Shown: piece by piece, positions 4,251 through 46,679 of the stretch | Layout: every line of letters starts with the position of its first letter | How positions within the stretch are numbered: the first letter of the stretch is position 1 | Virus record (IMG/VR): IMGVR_UViG_3300020473_000024 | Location: 21,012 to 85,011 of that record | Reading direction: 5' to 3' (one strand) | Origin: a virus | DNA length: 64,000 nucleotides | Program-made: the position numbers and the translations under genes | The notes under the pieces: generated by a model | What the model saw: only the letters and a program-made list of their open reading frames with translations | What the model was told of the DNA's origin: nothing | The model's database searches: none

Positions 4251-4329
4251 TCTTGCTCCTAACTGCTTACAGTTTCCTGTAAGAATAGACTATATCTTTG
4301 GTATATTAATAATAAACCGACTTACTATT

Positions 4330-4358
4330 ATTATACCACAGCCTGTTTCGATTGTCAA
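4330..4358 (-). promoter_or_regulatory. Consensus sigma70 promoter inside the intron ribozyme core, upstream of the endonuclease ORF
   Basis: TTGACA(4358-4353)-17 nt-TATAAT(4335-4330). Confidence 0.75.
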
Positions 4359-4563
4359 TGTTCTATAAGAACAGGAGCTTACAATCTACGCCTTACGGCT
4401 AGTCGTTGAACCTTCTCCTATTCGGAGCTTGGCGGCTGATCACCCAATCTTCTACATTTTCAGACATTCACGCCTAGGCTTATTTCATCCTTACGTTGTA
4501 GTTGTAGAAGCTCTAAGGGCTTCCCAGCAATTAAAGCTGTTTTTTACGTGAGGCTAGCAATTA

Positions 4564-6188
4564 ACCACACGGTGTTGGAAACGCGATGTGTTGCACCCGC
4601 ATGTATCCGCTGACGTAGGCAATCTACCATCATACTCCAGACGTGGATGGGCTAGGAAGCCTGTTCCATTAGGACTTAGTATGCTATTGCGTCTATGGCG
4701 GTAAGTCAACCAATGAACAATATCCTTGACATAAGCATATCTCTTACCCAACAACTCCAAGTTAGGGCAAAGCTTCTCCTTGTCGTCTCCATCAGTGTAA
4801 ATAGGCTGTGTAATAACCTTAAGGGGTCGAGAGAGATCGTGGTTTATCAGCTTATCTCTCATCTCCGCAATAGAGTTGACTTTTAAATGTTCTAATCGGA
4901 AAGGCTCTAGAGGACTATCTTTTGTCTCATCTATGTACCTCTCACAACTCTCTAGGAACTTAACACGGTCTAGTTTACGTTTCTTGCTGTCAAGAGTCAG
5001 GTCTTTATCTTTAAACGCAATAGGATTCCACCCCTGCCCTACAAGGTAAGATTTAATATCCCCTTGGTTAGCCAAGCGCATAGGCTCAGTCATAGGAGGC
5101 ATTTTCTTATCCTTAAGATCCTTTAAAGCCTGTTCCATCATCTCAGGGGGTAGAGGTTGCATTTCACCTTTCTCCCTGCTCTTCCTAATAAAATCTGGCA
5201 TGTCCTCTGGGTCAGTGATACCAGCTTGTTCACAGTATCTCTCCCCAGCCTTACTAATCGATCCATCTTGTTTAAAAGCTGTCTTAGGAGGAGCTTTAAA
5301 CTTAAGTACCTCGTTGTCCACAGGATACCCCAACTTCTCCAACCACGACCAACCATGACTACTAATCTCCCCATTGTCGGTGAAAGGTTTAGCAGGATAA
5401 CTAGGCTGTCTACTAGGAGGTAGTGGTCTAGGAGGTAATTTAGGCTCTACAACAGACTCTAATCGTTCCATTTCAGCATTAAGCCACTCCAAGTTTTCTT
5501 TGGCTAGCTGTTGGTCAAAAAAGAAGCCCTTTTCCTCACTACGTGATACTATCTCAGCAATAGCTTTTTCAACCCAATAGGCTTGATCCCAGTTCCAATT
5601 ACCTTTCTCTTGGATGAGGTATTGGTAGACTTTCTCGTTTACTTCCACATCTCGAATACAATATTCGAGCATTTCAGGGTGGTATACAGCAAACTCAGCA
5701 CCCTTGGGGTCACTGGGTGACACTAATCCCAACTCTTCGGCTTTAGCTCTCCAGTCAATCTTAGGCAATCCTAAAATCTTACCAAAGTCGTCTATTGAGT
5801 GACCCAACCTATCTGGGTTCAATGTTTTAGACAGCACAAGGGTGTCTTCAATAAAACAAGGCGATCCCTCTATTGTGTCCTCTAATGACCAATTATTAGC
5901 CTCAGCCTCTTTAGGATCACAGGTATCGGCTACTGTGAAACTAATGCCTAGTAGCTTACTACAAGCTCTTAAGTCATAGTTAATTATGTTGTGACCTATT
6001 AGGACAGAACACTTCTTCAAAAACTTGCTGAACATATTCAAAGGGAACTCACACTCAGGGTGATCCCCGAATGTGAAGATCTCCTTCGTATCAATATCTT
6101 TAGCAACAATACAGTGTATTTCTGTAATAGGATCTTCAACGTTAAGTAAGCCATTACCTTCTATATCAAATACGGCTCTTCTTCCCAT
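4564..6188 (-). CDS. DNA polymerase family A, exon 1 (3'-5' exonuclease domain); spliced product about 824 aa
   Basis: ExoI FDIEGNG, ExoII GHNIINYD, ExoIII YCIRDV; AGGAG RBS before ATG 6188. Confidence 0.92.
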
Positions 6189-36802: not shown

Positions 36803-37747
36803 TTAAAATTCTACGTTATATTTACCTACTTGGATAATATTCGGGATATCCAATAAATCCCACATGCGAACAACCTGAGGTCGATCATCAAACAAAGCAA
36901 TAACATTATACTTGCCACGAACTTGGTTGTCAAATAATTCATACTTAATAATGTCATCTTTTCGACTGTCTTTGGGAGATCGTTGGTAAAGATCCCATTT
37001 AATACCCAGCCGAGCTAAATCGTCTGTGATAATGTTGTCCTCAATCCACTGTGCAGAGGAATCGTAGCAGACTCCATCCCTGCCAGAAAAGAATGTAATA
37101 TGTCCCGTCTTAAGTGCTAGAGCACTCACCATATCGATGACCTCTTGGCGGGGCTTATCTAAATGAACTTTATCCCAATCAAAAGGTTTCCGAACACCAG
37201 TCATATCCGCAACAGTGCCATCTAAGTCCACGATGATAGTATCCTCTAGGAATAGACAATCTTCGTAGGGCTTGATTTTATTTCCACCAATAGTACCAAA
37301 TTGTTGCATAAAACGCTTGTATTGACTCCAAAGAAGACTTTCTGGTAAACCGCCCTCACGCTGTGCATTCCGTTTGACAAGTGTTTCCCAGCTTTCTTGG
37401 AAATATTTATACTCCACTTCATAGCCGTTCTCTTCAGCCCAACTCTCCCATTTACCTCGGATGGCTGGGCTGAGGTTCGTGTCAGAAATAATAATGTTAT
37501 GCTGTAGTACAGAGGCATCAAAAGCCTTTTGATCGACCACTTTTGTAACACGTTTTTCATTACTATTGTTGAACTTGTACTTTGTCCAATCCCGAACACC
37601 ATTGTTAAACAAAGCAAAGCGAATATCATCACGGTTGAGATTGACCCACTTAGGGTCTCCTTGCAGGGCTTGTTCTAAGATATACTCTTCAGCCCATTTT
37701 GTCTTACCAGAGCTGGACGCTCCTACAGTCATAATTAATTTAAGCAT
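36803..37747 (-). CDS. pseT: Polynucleotide 5'-kinase/3'-phosphatase (T4 PseT-like)
   Basis: GASSSGKT, NRDDIR, DTNL kinase; DLDGT, SGR, FDDR HAD phosphatase. Confidence 0.9.
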   Translation of the reverse strand: MLKLIMTVGASSSGKTKWAEEYILEQALQGDPKWVNLNRDDIRFALFNNGVRDWTKYKFNNSNEKRVTKVVDQKAFDASVLQHNIIISDTNLSPAIRGKWESWAEENGYEVEYKYFQESWETLVKRNAQREGGLPESLLWSQYKRFMQQFGTIGGNKIKPYEDCLFLEDTIIVDLDGTVADMTGVRKPFDWDKVHLDKPRQEVIDMVSALALKTGHITFFSGRDGVCYDSSAQWIEDNIITDDLARLGIKWDLYQRSPKDSRKDDIIKYELFDNQVRGKYNVIALFDDRPQVVRMWDLLDIPNIIQVGKYNVEF

Positions 37748-39042
37748 TAACTAGAATCCTCCATATCAACGTTGTTTTCTCTATAAATGCCCTCCAAAAT
37801 TTTAAAAGGGATAGACTTATTCTTATAGAACTTCGGCACTAACGTCTCTCCATCTACACGAATCACAACACCCTCGCTAATGTGGGATGGGTCTCGATAG
37901 TCCTCACAAAGGTTATCTTCACGCTCTGTTAATACGTCTACCACATTCATTAAACTGTCAGAGTCTCCTCGGTAAACAAAAGGCTCTACTAGATCAAGAG
38001 TAGATTCAATACCACGGTCTTCACACCAACGTTTGAATTGACTTTGTGTTAAATCAATTTCTGTGCCATCGATGGACGTGATTGTCACACGATAAGCATA
38101 AAACTTATACTCATCTGGGAGGCAGTTATAAGTGTAAGTAATCTCTTTACCATACTTCTTAGTGAACTGCTTATCCTTTAGTTTAGTTACGTCATGCGTA
38201 CCCATAATAGGTTTACCATTAGCAAAGCCTACAATCTCTCCATACACAGTAACACCTCGGTTAAGGAAGGGTTTTAGTTGCTCTAAAATCTCAAAGCGGA
38301 AGCCTTCATTACCGTGAAATCCTTCTTTATCTTTTTGAGAATTTTTAAGAACAACCCTGCGTGTCCCTGCTACATAATCCCACTCCTGAGTCTCGAAAAT
38401 AGGAACAACCTTATTTACAAGACGTTTCCACCAAGGTAATTCTTTCTCAACTAAGGTGTGGCTATAACGAGCCGATGTTCCATGACCTTTTGCTTGAATA
38501 CTAATAATAGAGCCAGCTGGAATGCGATCAACATGATACTTGAATTGATCAGTATCAACGTGTTGATGAAATAAAGGTGTTTCTTGCTTCTTACGCGCTT
38601 TTGTCCTTTGATTTGCTTGGGCTTTTTTAGTGCGAGGGTTGATATACTTCTGAGCAATAGGCACTCCATTTAGTTCTTCAAACATCATGCCTAACTCTAA
38701 CTTACTGATATCATACCCTGTAAAATGGAAGGACTCTAACCCAGCAAAGTAACCACACGACTTAACACCTAAGAAAGGTTGTGCGCGTACCCTGCGGTTA
38801 TCTTCAAAGAATCCCTTAGCCTTTGGGTTTTTGTTGTTTTCACTGTTACGATACAGCCCATTATCACTAACATAATCGTGAGATAGTTGAGTCTCAGCTG
38901 GGAAGTACACACCTAAGTCTCCCTCTTTAGCTGTCTTGGATACGATAACAGGCTCACCAAGTACATAAGCTACTTGGATGTTATCTGCTTTTTCAATCTG
39001 TTCTGTTTTTGCAATCTTAGCAATAATACCACAGTAGTTCAT
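37747..39042 (-). CDS. RNA ligase (DRB0094/Rnl5-like)
   Basis: N-terminal ADNIQ...GVYF domain; KGHGTS, YGEIVG, EGVVIR, KNKS; AGGAGG RBS before MNYCG. Confidence 0.8.
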   Translation of the reverse strand: MNYCGIIAKIAKTEQIEKADNIQVAYVLGEPVIVSKTAKEGDLGVYFPAETQLSHDYVSDNGLYRNSENNKNPKAKGFFEDNRRVRAQPFLGVKSCGYFAGLESFHFTGYDISKLELGMMFEELNGVPIAQKYINPRTKKAQANQRTKARKKQETPLFHQHVDTDQFKYHVDRIPAGSIISIQAKGHGTSARYSHTLVEKELPWWKRLVNKVVPIFETQEWDYVAGTRRVVLKNSQKDKEGFHGNEGFRFEILEQLKPFLNRGVTVYGEIVGFANGKPIMGTHDVTKLKDKQFTKKYGKEITYTYNCLPDEYKFYAYRVTITSIDGTEIDLTQSQFKRWCEDRGIESTLDLVEPFVYRGDSDSLMNVVDVLTEREDNLCEDYRDPSHISEGVVIRVDGETLVPKFYKNKSIPFKILEGIYRENNVDMEDSS

Positions 39043-39071
39043 TAAAATACCTCCTAAATTTAGACAATAAA

Positions 39072-39101
39072 AAGCCATGTACCCAAAAGGATACACGGCT
39101 T
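39072..39101 (-). terminator. Terminator hairpin after clpP-like gene
   Basis: AAGCCGTGTATCC-TTTT-GGGTACATGGCTTTT. Confidence 0.6.
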
Positions 39102-41105: not shown

Positions 41106-41182
41106 TGGTGGGTCGAGAGGGATTTGAACCCCCGATCCACTCGTTAAAAGCGAGTTGCCTTACCAGACTTGGCTATCGACCC
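41106..41182 (-). tRNA. tRNA-Lys(TTT)
   Basis: Cloverleaf, ACTCG-CTTTTAA-CGAGT, encoded CCA. Confidence 0.93.
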
Positions 41183-41187
41183 TGATT

Positions 41188-41262
41188 TGGAGCTTGCTGG
41201 GGGTTACGATCCCCCGACCTCTGCTTGGAAGGCAGATATTTTACCAATTAAACTAAGCAAGC
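41188..41262 (-). tRNA. tRNA-Gly(TCC), atypical T-loop ATCGTAA
   Basis: GCTTGCT/AGCAAGC acceptor, TCTGC-CTTCCAA-GCAGA, U73, CCA. Confidence 0.85.
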
Positions 41263-41267
41263 CAATG

Positions 41268-41344
41268 TGGTGCGCCAAGGCGGTTATGATCCGCTCCTAC
41301 TCCTAGTTATGAGCTAGTTGCTTTCCCGATTAAGCTATTGGCGC
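41268..41344 (-). tRNA. tRNA with CAT anticodon (elongator Met or Ile2), atypical T-loop ATCATAA
   Basis: GCGCCAA/TTGGCGC acceptor, CTAG-CTCATAA-CTAG, CCA. Confidence 0.8.
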
Positions 41345-41349
41345 GAAAA

Positions 41350-41425
41350 TGGTAGTGGTGGCAGGAATCGAACCTGCGACACGTAGATTATCGGTCTACT
41401 GTTCTACCAGCTGAACTACACCACT
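41350..41425 (-). tRNA. tRNA-Ile(GAT) with C33
   Basis: GTAGA-CCGATAA-TCTAC, TTCGATT, CCA. Confidence 0.88.
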
Positions 41426-41429
41426 GGAT

Positions 41430-41506
41430 TGGCTGAGGTGGAGGGATTCGAACCCCCGACCATCTGCTTAGAAGGCAGATGCTCTATCCAACTGAGCTAC
41501 ACCCCA
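41430..41506 (-). tRNA. tRNA-Arg(TCT)
   Basis: TCTGC-CTTCTAA-GCAGA, A20, CCA; starts immediately after the upstream stop codon. Confidence 0.93.
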
Positions 41507-42916
41507 TTAAACTAAAAATACTGGATCATACCGAGAATCTAGAACAGTTTCGTACATGATATCCAAAGGACTCACCACCTTAGAAGATAACACTGATCTC
41601 ATAATAGATGGGCTAAATCCACTTACTAAAGCTGTACCATTATCTTGCTTCTGGACAGGGTAGTTCTCTTGTCGAGAGCAGACATTCCAGAAAATTAAGT
41701 CAGGTCTTTTATAACCAGCTTTCTCAAACATCTTATCAATAGTGGCGAAGTTAGTCATCCCACCACAAGCACAATCAAATTCCATGTCACTGATGATCAT
41801 AATCTTATTAGGAAGTTCACTTTGGTCTAAACCATGCTTTACAGCCGATTCCAGTACAAGTTGAAATACAGCGATCAAGTTTGTATTGAAACCCCAATCC
41901 GAGTTGTATAGAGATCGAAGTTTACTATATAGCTTATCTCCTTTAACATTCTGTAAAGAAGGTCTTTCAGAGAAAGTAATAAACTTATTGTTAAACTTAC
42001 CTTCGATACGTTCTGATAGATAAAGACCTAAGCTAACAGCAACATCCATAGCCGTTGTACTACCACTAACTTTGATGTGCATACTCCCAGAGGTGTCAAC
42101 CACAGGAAGAATGCTAAAACTCTCTCCTTCAAAGTAATCTGGAAGGGCTTCCCACTGTTCGTTCGCGGCTGTTGTATTACCACCTTCTCGCATACTTTTA
42201 ATAATATCGTAAGGATATACCGCCCCAGCGTTAATCTTAGCCTCACCTTTACTAAGCTTATCTAAGTAGCTTCTGTAACGATTCTCATCATTACGTAAGA
42301 AAGATTTTTGATATCGAGCCGAAGCTACTGAAGGTACATGCTCATAGTTGATCTTGTCAAACTCTTTAGCACACATTTTTTGTTCCACAGTATCGCTCAA
42401 GCTAGACAGCATCTTACGGTACTCTTTTGAGCGAAGCCCCATGTGTTTACGTAGCAGTACAGCATAATCTCGTTTAGCTGACTTCTCACGAGGACACCAT
42501 TTAGCGGCTAGCGCACTACCTTCTTTAAGCTTTGAGGCATAAAAAGAAAGCATAGCCTCTTCTAAATCCGTACCAACAAACGTAAACAGATTATCATAGC
42601 GAGTCAACTCAACAACCTTGTCAAAAAGTTCTGTAGTGTTAAGGTCTTCTGTCAACTCTGGTAGAAGTTTAACAAGGTCTTTAAAAATTTGTCTTTCACC
42701 AGCTCCTTGGCGCACATCACCAGCCCATAAAAGAATACGGGTGGCTAATCCTTTATCCTCATTCCAAGCTCGTACAAACTTGTGATCGATATTCTTACCG
42801 CGAGAAGCCCCGATAGTAGCGAATAGATCTAAATTAGCGTCTAAGCTCGAAGAATTAGTGATAGCCCCGTTTTCAGTACGAGACATACCTGTTTGCATAG
42901 CATCAAATAATTCCAT
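41507..42916 (-). CDS. TROVE/Ro60-like helical domain plus vWA protein (DUF2828-type), 469 aa
   Basis: TENGA, DVRQGAGER, LAAKWCPRE, VPSVA; MIDAS DTSGSM, T, SDMEFD, FWNV, SGFS; AGGAGG RBS before ATG 42916. Confidence 0.8.
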   Translation of the reverse strand: MELFDAMQTGMSRTENGAITNSSSLDANLDLFATIGASRGKNIDHKFVRAWNEDKGLATRILLWAGDVRQGAGERQIFKDLVKLLPELTEDLNTTELFDKVVELTRYDNLFTFVGTDLEEAMLSFYASKLKEGSALAAKWCPREKSAKRDYAVLLRKHMGLRSKEYRKMLSSLSDTVEQKMCAKEFDKINYEHVPSVASARYQKSFLRNDENRYRSYLDKLSKGEAKINAGAVYPYDIIKSMREGGNTTAANEQWEALPDYFEGESFSILPVVDTSGSMHIKVSGSTTAMDVAVSLGLYLSERIEGKFNNKFITFSERPSLQNVKGDKLYSKLRSLYNSDWGFNTNLIAVFQLVLESAVKHGLDQSELPNKIMIISDMEFDCACGGMTNFATIDKMFEKAGYKRPDLIFWNVCSRQENYPVQKQDNGTALVSGFSPSIMRSVLSSKVVSPLDIMYETVLDSRYDPVFLV

Positions 42917-42932
42917 AAATCCTCCTAAATTC

Positions 42933-42982
42933 TGAATGTGTTTTGCTTCCATATCGCGGATTTGTTTTGCTGTATACATTCA
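42933..42982 (-). ncRNA. UACAGCAA module 1 (stem-loop directly upstream of the vWA gene RBS)
   Basis: TGAATGT/ACATTCA stem, TACAGCAA, inner TCC-GCGATAT-GGA. Confidence 0.6.
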
Positions 42983-42994
42983 TCCAATTAAAAC

Positions 42995-43048
42995 AGTGTT
43001 GCTTTTTCTTTTTATCCCATAAAAGTATAAAGTTGCTGTAACAACACT
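42995..43048 (-). ncRNA. UACAGCAAC module 2
   Basis: AGTGTTGT/GCAACACT stem, TACAGCAAC, inner CTTTT-ATGGGAT-AAAAAG. Confidence 0.65.
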
Positions 43049-43054
43049 TCAGAC

Positions 43055-43113
43055 AGGATGCTATACATAGTTTGATTAAAAGTCAAATTGTGTAAAGTTG
43101 CTGTAAGCATCCT
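43055..43113 (-). ncRNA. UACAGCAAC module 3 with a tRNA-Lys(UUU)-like anticodon stem-loop
   Basis: AGGATGCT/AGCATCCT stem, TACAGCAAC, inner TTTGA-CTTTTAA-TCAAA. Confidence 0.7.
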
Positions 43114-43202
43114 CTCGGAAAAGCTGTTAAGCCTAACACTGAAAAGTTGAGGTGAACCACATCCCTCTTACCCCGTGGTAACATCGGGTTTTAAATATAT
43201 TG

Positions 43203-43317
43203 TTGAGGGGGCTGGATTCGAACCAGCGACCAACGGCTTATCATGCGAGTATAGTTGCTGTAATTATACTTAACAGTATAAATATTACGTTGCTCTACCA
43301 AACTGAGCTACCCCTCA
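43203..43317 (-). ncRNA. tRNA-Ile(GAT)-like RNA with 41-nt UACAGCAAC insert in the anticodon stem (module 4)
   Basis: TGAGGGG/CCCCTCA acceptor, GCTC-AGTTTGGTA-GAGC D arm, GCTGG-TTCGAAT-CCAGC T arm; ACG[insert 43287-43247]GC-ATGATAA-GCCGT; no encoded CCA. Confidence 0.8.
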
Positions 43318-43324
43318 AAAATAT

Positions 43325-43507
43325 ACCCTACACTAACGCAGTAGGCTCGGAATGTTTGGTAACAGAGCTAACCATTCTTAGCTCCGCATGGGTGTAGCTA
43401 TTAGGCTACTGCCGCCATGTGGTATGTACTATCGTTTGCATTTATAACGATTAGTCATAGTTGCTGTAGGGACGACGACCCCCACCGATGTCTTCTCAGA
43501 ACATCGA
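43325..43507 (-). ncRNA. Module 5: UACAGCAAC RNA carrying a tmRNA-like tag reading frame
   Basis: ATAAAT|GCA AAC GAT AGT ACA TAC CAC ATG GCG GCA GTA GCC TAA TAG; stops in hairpin GTAGC-CTAATA-GCTAC; downstream pseudoknot GGAGCTAA/TTAGCTCT plus GAATG/CATTC. Confidence 0.65.
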
Positions 43508-43512
43508 GAAAT

Positions 43513-43540
43513 ATACTAACATACTAAATTTATTTGTCAA
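43513..43540 (-). promoter_or_regulatory. Sigma70-type promoter driving the RNA array, vWA gene and tRNA cluster
   Basis: TTGACA-16 nt-TAGTAT with TG extension. Confidence 0.6.
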
Positions 43541-43560
43541 TACATTTTTCGATATTTTTA

Positions 43561-43713
43561 GAAGCTGGAGCTTCACTGAGATACAGGCTCTCCACTCCGT
43601 AACTTTCCTGTATTGCTTCATTAAACCCTATAAACACGCATTATAGGTTGCGGTAGGACTTTTATATCCCGACCCTGCGTATCGGTTTGAGGTATCCGCT
43701 AGTGGATAACTTC
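43561..43713 (-). ncRNA. Unknown structured RNA, about 150 nt
   Basis: Ends GAAGTT/AGCTTC pair; hairpins TATCC/GGATA, CCTATAA/TTATAGG, ATACAGG/CCTGTAT; no ORF; own promoter. Confidence 0.5.
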
Positions 43714-43722
43714 AATACATCT

Positions 43723-43750
43723 ATTTTACCACAACATCACTAGTTGTCAA
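43723..43750 (-). promoter_or_regulatory. Sigma70-type promoter
   Basis: TTGACA-16 nt-TAAAAT with TGTGG before -10. Confidence 0.7.
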
Positions 43751-43760
43751 CCACTTTTTG

Positions 43761-43952
43761 CTAAAAAGTTAAAGTTGCTTGCTTACCTTGTTTCCGAAGT
43801 CGATAGAGTCGCTTCATTTCTTTGTAAAACAAACGCTGACAGCTATCCAACTCTACTGTACCGTTAAGATCAGCTGTGTATTTAACAACAGGTTGTGTTT
43901 TGGTATAAGAGTGAGCTAATTTACGTAATTCACGCGCTTTCTTCCCGTTCAT
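43761..43952 (-). CDS. Small basic hypothetical protein
   Basis: MNGKKARELRK...; TAATG coupling. Confidence 0.6.
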   Translation of the reverse strand: MNGKKARELRKLAHSYTKTQPVVKYTADLNGTVELDSCQRLFYKEMKRLYRLRKQGKQATLTF

Positions 43953-45686: not shown

Positions 45687-46679
45687 ATGAGTATGGAATT
45701 TTTAGCTAAGTTTGTACATGGAAGTCATCTTTACAAACTAAACACACCTGCATCTGACACCGATTTTAAAGGTGTCCATGTACCTAGTCTTGACGACCTG
45801 TTGTTGTGTGATGCCACCCATCACATTAACTTGGGTACGGACAAGAAAAGTGGGAGTAAAAATACAAAAGACGATGTTGATTTTGAAAGTTATTCTATCC
45901 ACAAGTGGGTAGACCTACTATCCAAAGGAGAGATGGTGTGTTTTGACATGTTGTTTGCTCCAGAGGATTGTGTGGAGTATTACCACAAAGGTGAGGTGAC
46001 GACAGACCCAGCCCTGTTGGAAAGAAATCCTGTGTGGATTATCCGAAACCGTTATAAGGATTTGTTTGTGCATTCAGATATGAAGGCTTACCTAGGCTAT
46101 TGCCGTAGACAAGCTAGTAAGTATGGTATCAAAGGAAGTCGATTGCACAGCCTTTTTGAGATCCAAGGTGTGTTAGAAAACCTAGATATCCGCAGGAAAG
46201 ATAGATTATACAATTACGTAGAGAAACTACCTACTAATGAATATTTGAAATTAGAGGACGACCACTACGAGGTGTTGGGTAAGAAACACCAACTAACAAC
46301 CTATATGGAAGAGTTTTGTGATAGAATTACTGCGGAGATCAACAAATATGGTAATCGGGCTGTCCAAGCGGAAAAGAACGAAGGTGTTGATTGGAAGGCG
46401 GTTAGCCACGCTTTTCGTGCAGGGTATCAGATCCAGAGTATGCTCTATACAGGAGAGATGTTTGTTGTACTACCTGACGAGATTAGAAAGTATGTCTTAA
46501 AACTTAAAAAAGGGGAATTGGATTGGACAACAGAAGTAAAACCTAATCTGGAGAAACTTATGAACATAGTGGAGTTAATCGCTAGAGAAAATCCCTTAGA
46601 TCTTCCAGAGAAACCAGATAAAGGGGTTATTCAAGAAAAACTTCTAGAGATCTTGAAAGATTTTAACAATATCTCTTGA
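45687..46679 (+). CDS. Pol-beta-superfamily nucleotidyltransferase (T4 NrdC.11/RlaP-like)
   Basis: HGSHLYKLNTPASDTDFKG (GS...DxD), DWKAVSHAFR. Confidence 0.8.
   Translation: MSMEFLAKFVHGSHLYKLNTPASDTDFKGVHVPSLDDLLLCDATHHINLGTDKKSGSKNTKDDVDFESYSIHKWVDLLSKGEMVCFDMLFAPEDCVEYYHKGEVTTDPALLERNPVWIIRNRYKDLFVHSDMKAYLGYCRRQASKYGIKGSRLHSLFEIQGVLENLDIRRKDRLYNYVEKLPTNEYLKLEDDHYEVLGKKHQLTTYMEEFCDRITAEINKYGNRAVQAEKNEGVDWKAVSHAFRAGYQIQSMLYTGEMFVVLPDEIRKYVLKLKKGELDWTTEVKPNLEKLMNIVELIARENPLDLPEKPDKGVIQEKLLEILKDFNNIS

What the first reader, a model, noticed from the sequence alone, without database searches (positions are those of the whole stretch)
42948..43087. Modules 1-3 display isolated anticodon-loop mimics (Lys-UUU, Pro-GGG-like, Ile-GAU-like)
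Seen: module 3 inner hairpin TTTGA-CTTTTAA-TCAAA (43087-43071) is a 5-bp stem with a 7-nt loop, and the loop is identical to that of the tRNA-Lys at 41106. Module 2 has loop ATGGGAT and module 1 has TCC-GCGATAT-GGA (weaker). Known: enterobacterial tRNA-Lys has TTGA-CTTTTAA-TCAA, tRNA-Pro(GGG) has an A32/U38 loop, and anticodon nucleases such as PrrC and PARIS AriB cleave tRNA-Lys. Inference: decoy substrates that titrate host anticodon nucleases, with the array acting as an exchangeable decoy library.
Basis: partly seen in the sequence, partly recalled or inferred. Interest (0 to 1): 0.8.

Follow-up and report, generated by a model that had tools for sequence, protein, structure and literature searches.

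The report
Phage Ro60-like partner RNAs showing tRNA-Lys arm
Three small RNA modules ahead of a phage Ro60-like gene share one conserved handle, and one of them carries an exact copy of the tRNA-Lys anticodon hairpin that recurs in over a hundred viral contigs, which points to an undescribed Y-RNA-like particle that shows tRNA parts to other factors.

Summary
Only module 3 holds up as an anticodon-arm mimic. All three modules (minus strand, 43112-42932) are built alike: a closing helix starting with G, single-stranded (U/A)UACAGCAA, a variable cargo, then CUG(U) or AG. They lie in the leader of a DUF2828+vWA gene, a Ro60-like protein.

Module 3's cargo, UUUGA-CUUUUAA-UCAAA, matches 15 of 15 bases of the E. 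coli lysT anticodon arm. Handle plus this hairpin occurs in 57 IMG/VR contigs. With the outer stem left free there are 105 contigs: 94 of 106 matches are closed modules, the loop is fixed and the stems covary (26 stem types).

Module 2's loop (AUGGGAU, 6 of 7 with E. coli proL) recurs as AUUGGA(U)(A) in 6-8-nt loops, so it is conserved but not a fixed anticodon loop. Module 1's 3-bp hairpin has no support.

Related modules carry whole or permuted tRNA bodies, some with swapped anticodons. An exchangeable tRNA-part cargo is therefore supported. The nuclease-decoy function is untested.

The same scan reported this handle/Ro60-like pairing on other DNA (480 notes, at least 373 genomes). Those agents and my own searches found no paper or Rfam family describing it.

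The parts
43053..43112 (-). Module 3: closing helix GGAUGC/GCAUCC, UUACAGCAAC, helix 2 (ACA/UGU), tRNA-Lys-type anticodon arm, UGU tail
   Evidence: aligned with 37 related modules, outer helix 98.7% paired with compensatory changes at all 6 pairs
43071..43087 (-). Cargo hairpin UUUGA-CUUUUAA-UCAAA, a copy of the tRNA-Lys(UUU) anticodon arm
   Evidence: recurs behind the handle in 57 and 105 IMG/VR contigs
42993..43047 (-). Module 2: closing helix GUGUUG/CAACAC, UUACAGCAAC, hairpin CUUUU-AUGGGAUA-AAAAG, UGU tail
   Evidence: homologous cargo in Klebsiella phage KP2025, L157, a marine relative and Listeria phage LP-064
42932..42981 (-). Module 1: closing helix GAAUGU/ACAUUC, AUACAGCAAA, weak 3-bp hairpin (42960-42948), AG tail; ends 6 nt before the AGGAGG ribosome site
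   Evidence: no homologue found
41507..42916 (-). Gene for a 469-aa DUF2828 + DUF7788 (vWA) protein, Ro60-like; ATG at 42916
   Evidence: Pfam 6.3e-30 and 4.4e-49; PHROG 850 'RNA-binding protein' 1.7e-150; nearest other Atlas clusters are TROVE+vWA_Ro60 at 0.92; DxSxS invariant
43203..43317 (-). tRNA-Ile(GAU)-like RNA with a hairpin plus UUACAGCAAC inserted in the anticodon stem (same handle, permuted)
43460..43468 (-). Further exact handle motif UACAGCAAC heading a larger RNA (43485-43325)
   Evidence: weak tmRNA-family matches at 43390-43459; not studied further
43647..43655 (-). Degenerate handle UACCGCAAC in the most upstream RNA
   Evidence: 1 mismatch
43513..43750 (-). Two sigma-70-like promoter matches (43750-43723, 11 of 12; 43540-43513, 10 of 12) upstream of the array; no terminator-like site on this strand before the gene
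   Evidence: consensus matches only, and the total count is not above shuffles
41106..41506 (-). Five tRNA genes (Arg, Ile, Met, Gly, Lys) directly after the Ro60-like gene
36803..39096 (-). Polynucleotide kinase-phosphatase and RNA ligase genes (RNA-repair neighbourhood)
   Evidence: Pfam HAD_PNKP 2.8e-37 and RNA_ligase 4.6e-09; RlaP-family gene at 45687-46679

Best explanation
Modules 1-3 are three members of an array of small non-coding RNAs that work like Y RNAs for the phage's Ro60-like (DUF2828+vWA) protein. Each has a constant handle: a 6-7-bp terminal helix that begins with G, followed by single-stranded (U/A)UACAGCAA. I infer that this handle is the protein's binding site. Each also has an exchangeable cargo. 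In module 3 the cargo is a copy of the anticodon arm of tRNA-Lys(UUU): a 5-bp stem and the loop CUUUUAA, stacked on a second short helix. The particle would therefore display a tRNA-Lys anticodon arm that cannot be aminoacylated. The most likely use (inferred, not shown) is as bait or competitor for a factor that reads this arm. An anticodon nuclease that targets tRNA-Lys is the leading candidate, and the vWA/MIDAS domain is free to hold a protein. Module 2 carries a different conserved hairpin with loop AU(G/U)GGAU(A), of unknown meaning. Module 1 is a near-minimal handle next to the ribosome site and may act mainly on the gene's own translation. Shown: the anatomy, the linkage to the gene, the conservation and the covariation. 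Inferred: protein binding, transcript processing and the bait function.
For: Handle and gene linkage. ACAGCAA on the gene's strand is enriched just upstream (0.352 per kb vs 0.083 on the other strand) and just downstream of DUF2828 genes in 94 viral loci. Modules sit beside the gene in Felixounavirus TP1 and UAB_Phi87, Cronobacter S13, Klebsiella KP2025 and Listeria LP-064.

Ro60 likeness. 26 of the 30 nearest Atlas clusters outside DUF2828 are TROVE+vWA_Ro60. Mycobacteriophage homologues are annotated 'Ro-like'. HHpred matched the Listeria phage homologue to Rsr (paper passages). Bas63 gp130 is reported as 'high structural similarity to Ro60'.

Module 3 cargo. It matches E. coli lysT at 15 of 15 bases. 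Handle plus this 15-mer occurs in 57 contigs, and 52 of 57 close within 45 nt against 12.4% for random 6-mers. On 38 aligned modules 95% of cells are paired against 74% in shuffles (0 of 500 shuffles reach it), with compensatory changes in all 6 outer pairs and all 3 helix-2 pairs. With the outer stem left free there are 105 contigs; 94 of 106 matches are closed, with 26 stem types and a 5-bp stem plus CUUUUAA in nearly all.

Continuum to whole tRNA bodies. Some modules are acceptor-less tRNA-Lys (L109, L219), and 29 carry a T-arm-type motif, many of them permuted tRNA bodies. The Rfam YrlA model hits L017 at E 1.9e-5.

Enrichment of anticodon-like loops over shuffles. Seven-nt loops make up 114 of 206 hairpins in short modules.

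Context. PNKP, RNA ligase, RlaP and the phage's own tRNA-Lys with a different stem are nearby. AriB of PARIS cleaves tRNA-Lys, and T5 escapes with an altered tRNA-Lys (paper text). Bas63 gp130 is an anti-defence factor.
Against: No binding, expression or cleavage data exist for this phage. The marine metatranscriptome contigs cover only parts of the leader and cannot prove transcription. Pfam TROVE does not match the protein. Bas63 gp130 countered Ppl without any phage RNA, and Ppl is not known to cut tRNA. Homologues of this window's PNKP and RNA ligase lie near the modules in 1 of 98 and 0 of 57 other loci (flanks are short). Only 3 of 60 modules found through the protein carry an anticodon-like loop, so most cargo is something else. 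Modules 1 and 2 do not fit the anticodon reading. An earlier scan report on a related phage had its bold reading later rated at 6 in 100 (its content was not shown to me).
Confidence: 0.6

Rival explanations
1. Same particle, different purpose. The tRNA-Lys arm recruits a tRNA-handling enzyme (repair, modification or decay), so that the Ro60-like protein acts as an RNA quality-control or repair platform, as proposed for Rsr-YrlA, and not as a decoy.
For: Rsr-YrlA-RtcB operons respond to damaged tRNA (listing). PNKP, RNA ligase and RlaP lie in this window. RtcB sits 1.3 kb from the gene in Listeria phage LP-064. Many modules carry YrlA-like permuted tRNA bodies.
Against: Repair genes of this window's type are not near the modules in other loci (1 of 98, 0 of 57). 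An intact anticodon arm is not a repair substrate. Nothing explains why Lys dominates the isolated arms (81 against 13 others in held loci, a count biased by how the loci were fetched).
Confidence: 0.22
2. The cargo hairpins are leftovers of tRNA genes, because the modules arise inside tRNA arrays. They serve only as stable filler, and the anticodon identity has no function.
For: Modules lie inside tRNA arrays: 54 of 57 Lys-pattern loci hold at least one tRNA gene, median 8. There is a continuum from whole tRNA bodies to isolated arms.
Against: CUUUUAA and the 5-bp stem are kept while the stem sequence covaries over 26 types, and the outer helix and linkers diverge. A filler would not keep a 7-nt loop letter for letter.
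Confidence: 0.08
3. Module 1 (and similar minimal modules next to the ribosome site) is an operator through which the protein controls its own translation. Its small hairpin is chance.
For: Module 1 ends 6 nt before AGGAGG. Cargo-free modules of 33-34 nt lie 43-105 nt before the start codon in L005, L011, L019, L025 and L076. The module 1 hairpin is no better than shuffles. A marine relative changes its 'anticodon' G to U.
Against: No test of regulation. Module 1 could equally be cut out as a small RNA like the others.
Confidence: 0.3
4. The conserved TTGACT in module 3 is a promoter -35 box at the DNA level, not an RNA hairpin.
For: The scan finds TTGACT-17-TAGCAT at 43086-43058, 9 of 12.
Against: 72 of the 94 closed modules with the free outer stem have other stems (e.g. 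AUAGA/UCUAU) without TTGAC, yet keep complementarity and the loop. Promoter-like sites are not above shuffles.
Confidence: 0.02

Closest known systems
Ro60 (Rsr) with Y RNAs, especially bacterial and phage YrlA (Rfam RF02553; Chen et al. 2014, PMC4201824, passages read)
   Same: Small RNAs are encoded within 1-2 kb of, and on the same strand as, a ring-type RNA-binding protein with a vWA domain. A terminal helix carries the presumed binding site, and the rest is a variable module that often mimics tRNA. Related phage modules hit the YrlA model below threshold (39.1 and 33 bits).
   Different: The protein is Pfam DUF2828/DUF7788, not TROVE. The handle is G-helix plus UACAGCAA, not GNCGAAN0-1G. 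The RNAs come in arrays with swapped cargo. Cargo can be an isolated anticodon arm, which YrlA lacks. In the window YrlA scores only 15 bits.
Class I RNAs of Dictyostelium (Rfam RF01414; Kjellin et al. 2021, PMC7919456, passages read)
   Same: Both have a 5' G, a 6-bp terminal stem, a conserved single-stranded motif next to the 5' strand (the model consensus holds UUACAGCAA), a variable remainder, a 3' CUGU whose C pairs with the 5' G, a length of about 60 nt and clustered genes. RF01414 is the best non-tRNA Rfam match to modules 3 and 2 (24.7 and 21.0 bits) and to L135 (30.2 bits).
   Different: All scores are under the 41.5-bit threshold. There was no match at E 0.05 in four other loci. The known direct binder is an RRM protein (Rnp1A). 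Whether Dictyostelium has a DUF2828 protein, or whether one was among the other three bound proteins, could not be checked because Avesson 2011 is not held. The paper states that the class is unique to Dictyostelia.
Phage tRNAs that escape anticodon nucleases (T5 tRNA-Lys against PARIS; highlight PMC11455837 read)
   Same: Both concern the tRNA-Lys anticodon arm in the conflict between phage and host. This phage also carries a true tRNA-Lys with a different stem.
   Different: Those are working tRNAs that replace cut ones. Module 3 has no acceptor or T arm and cannot be charged, and it keeps an arm identical to that of E. coli lysT instead of altering it.
Isolated anticodon-arm mimics in mRNA, such as the thrS operator bound by threonyl-tRNA synthetase (recalled, no call)
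   Same: A lone hairpin copies a tRNA anticodon arm and is read by a protein that normally reads the tRNA.
   Different: That is a cis-regulatory element of a bacterial mRNA. Here the arm is cargo on a small RNA handle tied to a Ro60-like protein.

Membership tests
Y RNA / YrlA (partner RNA of a Ro60-type protein) | Encoded close to, and on the same strand as, the Ro60-type gene | tested here: met
   The modules lie 16-196 nt upstream of the gene. The strand-specific motif is enriched next to the gene in 94 loci and is present in five named phages.
Y RNA / YrlA (partner RNA of a Ro60-type protein) | Partner protein is a TROVE-domain Ro60 | tested here: inconclusive
   Pfam TROVE does not match. 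Atlas features place TROVE+vWA_Ro60 clusters nearest at 0.92. Two papers report Ro60/Rsr likeness of homologues.
Y RNA / YrlA (partner RNA of a Ro60-type protein) | Conserved Ro-binding sequence GNCGAAN0-1G in the terminal helix; Rfam RF02553 at 69 bits or more | tested here: not met
   The handle is UACAGCAA. YrlA scores 15 bits in the window and 39.1 bits at best in related loci.
Y RNA / YrlA (partner RNA of a Ro60-type protein) | Physically bound by the protein | not testable with these tools
   Needs pull-down or a gel shift.
tRNA anticodon-arm mimic | 5-bp stem, 7-nt loop, pyrimidine-32, U33, purine-37 | tested here: met
   Met for module 3 only. Module 2 has U33 and A37 but a loop of 7 or 8 nt, and 6-8 nt in relatives. 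Module 1 has a 3-bp stem, G32 and C33.
tRNA anticodon-arm mimic | Identity with a real tRNA arm | tested here: met
   Module 3 matches E. coli lysT at 15 of 15 bases. Module 2 matches the proL loop at 6 of 7 and differs at position 37.
tRNA anticodon-arm mimic | Kept in homologous modules beyond chance | tested here: met
   Module 3 class; shuffles. Not met for modules 1 and 2.
Decoy substrate of an anticodon nuclease | Bound or cut by the nuclease, and protects host or phage tRNA | not testable with these tools
Indirect context only.
Dictyostelium Class I RNA (RF01414) | 5' G, 6-bp terminal stem, conserved motif next to the 5' strand, 3' CUGU | tested here: met
   Modules 2 and 3, against the paper's description.
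Dictyostelium Class I RNA (RF01414) | Score at or above Rfam's 41.5 bits | tested here: not met
   24.7, 21.0 and 30.2 bits.

The most novel reading that the evidence does not exclude
A widespread phage particle, made of a Ro60-like ring protein plus handle-tagged RNAs, displays copies of host anticodon arms, above all tRNA-Lys(UUU). These act as bait that traps or saturates tRNA-cutting defence nucleases. The array is a fast-changing library of baits, because orthologous scaffolds carry different anticodons. The same handle in Dictyostelium Class I RNAs would then mark an ancient, cross-kingdom RNA-protein pairing.
Probability: 0.2. Interest if true: 0.9.

Novelty: new variant of a known kind. 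Interest (0 to 1): 0.75.

Why it matters
Ro60/Y-RNA particles are known from animals and some bacteria, but what their tRNA-like parts are for remains open. Here one handle links a very common phage protein to RNAs that carry plain, readable tRNA parts. That protein has 711 matching phage records, including 251 records holding a close relative of the Felixounavirus gene, Felix O1 among them. The commonest isolated part in the loci I hold is the anticodon arm of tRNA-Lys, the tRNA that several defence nucleases cut. This gives a direct, cheap test in culturable phages (Felix O1, Bas63, P100). It may explain the 'odd tRNAs' annotated in many phage tRNA arrays, and it may give a function to an anti-defence protein already shown to work in Bas63. 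It may also give the unexplained Class I RNAs of social amoebae a relative.

Tried and rejected
1. I first thought the E. coli-type stem (UUGA/UCAA) was itself selected. Two facts suggested it: only 2 of 35 true phage tRNA-Lys genes in the loci have it, and a control scan with the stem CGG/CCG gave 3 hits, one of them chance and two the same tRNA-like RNA. The scan with the outer stem left free refuted this: 72 of 94 closed modules have other stems. The loop and the geometry are what is kept.

2. Module 2 as a conserved 7-nt Pro loop. A scan anchored outside the loop found only one more true homologue (L157) and one chance match. The loop is 6 nt there and in KP2025, 7 nt in a marine relative and 8 nt here and in Listeria LP-064. 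A D-loop-like reading (A..UGG..A) is possible but untested.

3. Promoter reading of TTGACT: rejected (see the rival explanations).

4. PDB sequence and profile searches gave nothing relevant. NCBIfam gave nothing.

5. A megablast of the region against phages found only a 61-nt tRNA-Arg match.

6. Co-occurrence with this window's PNKP and RNA ligase was 1 of 98 and 0 of 57 loci. The flanks are short, so this is weak evidence.

7. RNA evidence. Three marine metatranscriptome runs from one study were laid. Exact or near-exact contigs cover 42865-43050 (7 differences), 43310-43505, 43605-43775 and parts of the gene and tRNAs. Contigs cannot show transcription or RNA ends, and module 3 itself had almost no cover (depth 0-0.5 in 43086-43212), which proves nothing.

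8. The three highly transcribed regions of Listeria phage CKA15 cannot be equated with the three LP-064 modules. A ROOL-like RNA (87.4 bits, under the 99.1-bit threshold) lies in the same stretch, and the paper's coordinates are in figures and supplements that I could not see.

9. The Rfam gathering scan of 16 loci listed only its best 150 of 253 matches, all tRNA, so it says nothing about other families.

10. Literature. 'DUF2828' occurs in 5 papers, none on phages. The motif strings occur in 92 papers; the 15 listed are siRNA or primer contexts and I did not see the rest. The Y RNA/phage/tRNA-like/anti-defense search gave 3 papers, none describing the handle. The supplements of Chen 2014, the PhageMaP preprint and the CKA15 paper were not seen and may bear on which phage RNAs were already listed.

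Full report
What is there. The finding lies in the 840-nt non-coding leader (minus strand, 43760-42917) of a gene whose true start is the ATG at 42916, preceded by AGGAGG. The gene encodes a 469-aa protein with Pfam DUF2828 (6.3e-30) and DUF7788 (4.4e-49). VWA_2 matches 17 of 32 aligned homologues, and a DxSxS motif is invariant. Five tRNA genes follow the gene directly. Downstream lie an endolysin-type gene, PhoH and ClpP-like genes, an RNA ligase and a polynucleotide kinase-phosphatase, and an RlaP-family gene lies upstream. The record is an 85,011-base IMG/VR virus genome rated 99% complete. Near-identical pieces occur in marine metatranscriptome assemblies.

The observation. The three hairpins are at the stated coordinates. 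Module 3 runs 43112-43053, module 2 runs 43047-42993 and module 1 runs 42981-42932. All three have the same plan: a 6-bp helix that joins the two ends and starts with G, then two bases and ACAGCAA left single-stranded, a variable middle, the 3' strand of the helix, and UGU (AG in module 1). UACAGCAAC occurs exactly four times in the window, all on this strand within 440 nt. With one mismatch allowed, the window has 36 matches against 14.9 expected, and 0 of 100 shuffles reach 36. Module 3's inner hairpin is a 5-bp stem with loop CUUUUAA and is the stable fold (z -3.38). Module 2's AUGGGAU is present, but the fold is ambiguous. Module 1's 3-bp hairpin is no better than shuffled sequence.

What the modules are. 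The protein family is very common in phages. There are 711 records by tblastn, 708 of them over at least 80% of the length. They include Felix O1-type, KVP40-type, Listeria P100-type, Staphylococcus, Enterococcus, Campylobacter and mycobacterial phages, where it is annotated 'Ro-like RNA binding protein'. In 94 IMG/VR loci fetched through the protein, ACAGCAA on the gene's strand is concentrated in the 800 nt before the gene and the 600 nt after it, and not on the other strand. The same units stand next to the gene in E. coli phage TP1, Salmonella phage UAB_Phi87, Cronobacter S13, Klebsiella KP2025 and Listeria LP-064. The handle and the gene therefore travel together across very distant phages. 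Once DUF2828 clusters are set aside, the Atlas places TROVE+vWA_Ro60 clusters nearest (26 of 30, score 0.92). Two papers independently report Ro60/Rsr likeness of homologues by HHpred or by structure. Pfam TROVE itself does not match. The best frame is therefore a Y-RNA-like system with its own handle. I infer, but have not shown, that the handle is the protein's binding site.

The cargo. Across 429 distinct modules in 241 held loci, 7-nt loops are by far the commonest: 114 of 206 hairpins in short modules. Cargo ranges widely. Some modules have none (33-34 nt, often just before the ribosome site). Others carry single hairpins, acceptor-less tRNAs or circularly permuted tRNA bodies with a closed acceptor stem. 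One of the permuted bodies hits Rfam's YrlA model at E 1.9e-5. Orthologous permuted scaffolds carry different anticodon loops: CUUCUAA in L104 and L111, CUGCAAA in L155, CUGCUAA in L130 and ACUAUAA in L149.

Module 3. Its 15-nt core UUGA-CUUUUAA-UCAA equals the anticodon arm of E. coli lysT. A collection-wide exact scan for ACAGCAA followed within 8-38 nt by this core found 57 viral contigs. Of these, 52 close their 6-bp helix within 45 nt, against 12.4% for random 6-mers, and they use 19 different helix sequences. Twenty-seven hold a DUF2828 gene within the short stretch I hold, and 54 hold tRNA genes. In an alignment of 38 such modules, the outer helix is 98.7% paired with compensatory changes at all six pairs. 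A second 3-bp helix under the arm also covaries, and the arm's fifth pair switches between U-A and A-U. No shuffle of 500 reaches the observed pairing. When only the loop and its two closing pairs were fixed, 105 contigs matched. In the loci held, 94 of 106 matches are closed modules with 26 different stem sequences, nearly all forming 5-bp stems. The selected features are thus the tRNA-Lys loop and anticodon-arm geometry, not one stem sequence. My earlier idea that the E. coli-type stem was itself selected is withdrawn. Some modules in these sets are D-arm, Lys arm and T-arm enclosed by the handle (L109, L219), which ties the isolated hairpin to tRNA-Lys by descent or by design.

Define 'anticodon-like' as a stem of at least 4 bp, a 7-nt loop, pyrimidine-32, U33, purine-37, and not a T-loop. 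The 60 modules from protein-found loci hold 3 such loops, against 0.20 in shuffles (maximum 1 in 30 shuffles). The 47 other modules in the Lys-pattern loci hold 10, against 0.43 (maximum 2), and 9 of those are of the form CU-NNN-AA against 0.13. The enrichment is real, but most modules carry something else.

Modules 2 and 1. E. coli proL has the loop AUGGGGU, so the A32/U38 statement is right and module 2 matches 6 of 7. The homologous hairpin reads differently elsewhere: CUUUU-AUUGGA-AAAAG in KP2025 and L157, AUUGGAU in a marine relative, and UAUAUU-AUUGGAUA-AAUAUA in Listeria LP-064. That is a conserved motif on covarying stems, with a loop of 6-8 nt and A where every tRNA-Pro I looked at has G. 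It is a real cargo type whose meaning I cannot assign. Module 1 has no homologue. Its 'anticodon' G is U in the marine relative. Its position suggests a role at the ribosome site.

How it may work. Shown: the anatomy, the linkage, the conservation and the covariation. Inferred: the RNAs are cut from a leader transcript. Two strong promoter-like sites lie upstream and no terminator lies before the gene. The ring protein holds the handle, and the particle shows a tRNA-Lys arm to another factor. PARIS AriB cuts tRNA-Lys, and T5 escapes with an altered tRNA-Lys. This phage carries a true tRNA-Lys with a different stem together with an arm identical to that of E. coli lysT. In Bas63, a Felixounavirus, the Ro60-like gene directly upstream of the tRNA stretch counters the Ppl defence. 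That Bas63 gene is the DUF2828 homologue is my inference: it holds the same position in TP1 and UAB_Phi87, and close relatives of the TP1 gene occur in 251 phage records, most of them Felix O1-type. These points make a bait or decoy role the leading idea. However, gp130 worked without phage RNA, Ppl is not known as a tRNA nuclease, and no cleavage or binding has been tested. A repair or quality-control role is the main rival.

Known relatives and novelty. The closest known system is Ro60/Rsr with YrlA, but the defining Ro-binding motif and the Rfam threshold are not met. The handle and overall plan resemble Dictyostelium Class I RNAs, at 21-30 bits where 41.5 is needed, and this remains a lead. 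I found no paper describing the handle or the anticodon-arm cargo (with the limits stated above). Two papers only guess that Y RNAs may lie near the gene. This scan has already reported the same pairing on other DNA (480 notes in at least 373 genomes), and those follow-ups reached similar readings. I saw them only after my own tests, and they did not change my reading.

Verdict. This is a new variant of the Ro60/Y-RNA kind, of high interest.

Noticed in passing
window 4266-4592 (-): Group I intron, Rfam RF00028 at 69.9 bits (threshold 50).
   Followed up: no
window 43203-43317 (-): tRNA-Ile(GAU)-like RNA of 115 nt. A hairpin plus UUACAGCAAC is inserted in the anticodon stem, so it is the same handle in permuted order. 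Cronobacter phage S13 has annotated 'tRNAs' of 121 and 113 nt in the matching place (L097 4387-4629).
   Followed up: partly
L104, L111, L155, L149, L130: Orthologous permuted-tRNA modules (GGAUAC...GUAUCC scaffold) carry different anticodon loops: UCU, GCA, GCU and ACUAUAA. It looks as if the anticodon were being swapped.
   Followed up: partly
L159 1938-2489 (Listeria phage LP-064): ROOL-like RNA (RF03087) at 87.4 bits, E 1.6e-16, just under the 99.1-bit threshold. It lies between tRNA genes, 1 kb upstream of the three handle modules and the Ro60-like gene. An RtcB-like ligase lies 1.3 kb downstream of that gene.
   Followed up: no
L005, L011, L019, L025, L076: Cargo-free modules of 33-34 nt lie 43-105 nt before the start codon of the Ro60-like gene. 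They may be autoregulatory operators.
   Followed up: no
window 41350-41425 (-): The phage tRNA-Ile(GAU) has the loop CCGAUAA, with C33 in place of the usual U33. Module 1's loop GCGAUAU shares CGAUA with it.
   Followed up: partly
L020-L088, about +1450 and +1510 after the gene: Many loci carry a fixed pair of modules right after the gene: a short GGUUCC-type module and a module of about 230 nt that starts GGAUCGGUACAGCAAAAAGUAC. The long one is a conserved large cargo of unknown fold.
   Followed up: no
paper PMC12282133: The Listeria phage homologue (CKA15_055) was detected in purified virions at 57% sequence coverage, so the protein may be packaged.
   Followed up: no
window 43310-43505: A metatranscriptome contig (depth 15.9, 2 differences) covers the RNA headed by the handle at 43468. 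Weak tmRNA-family matches lie there.
   Followed up: no
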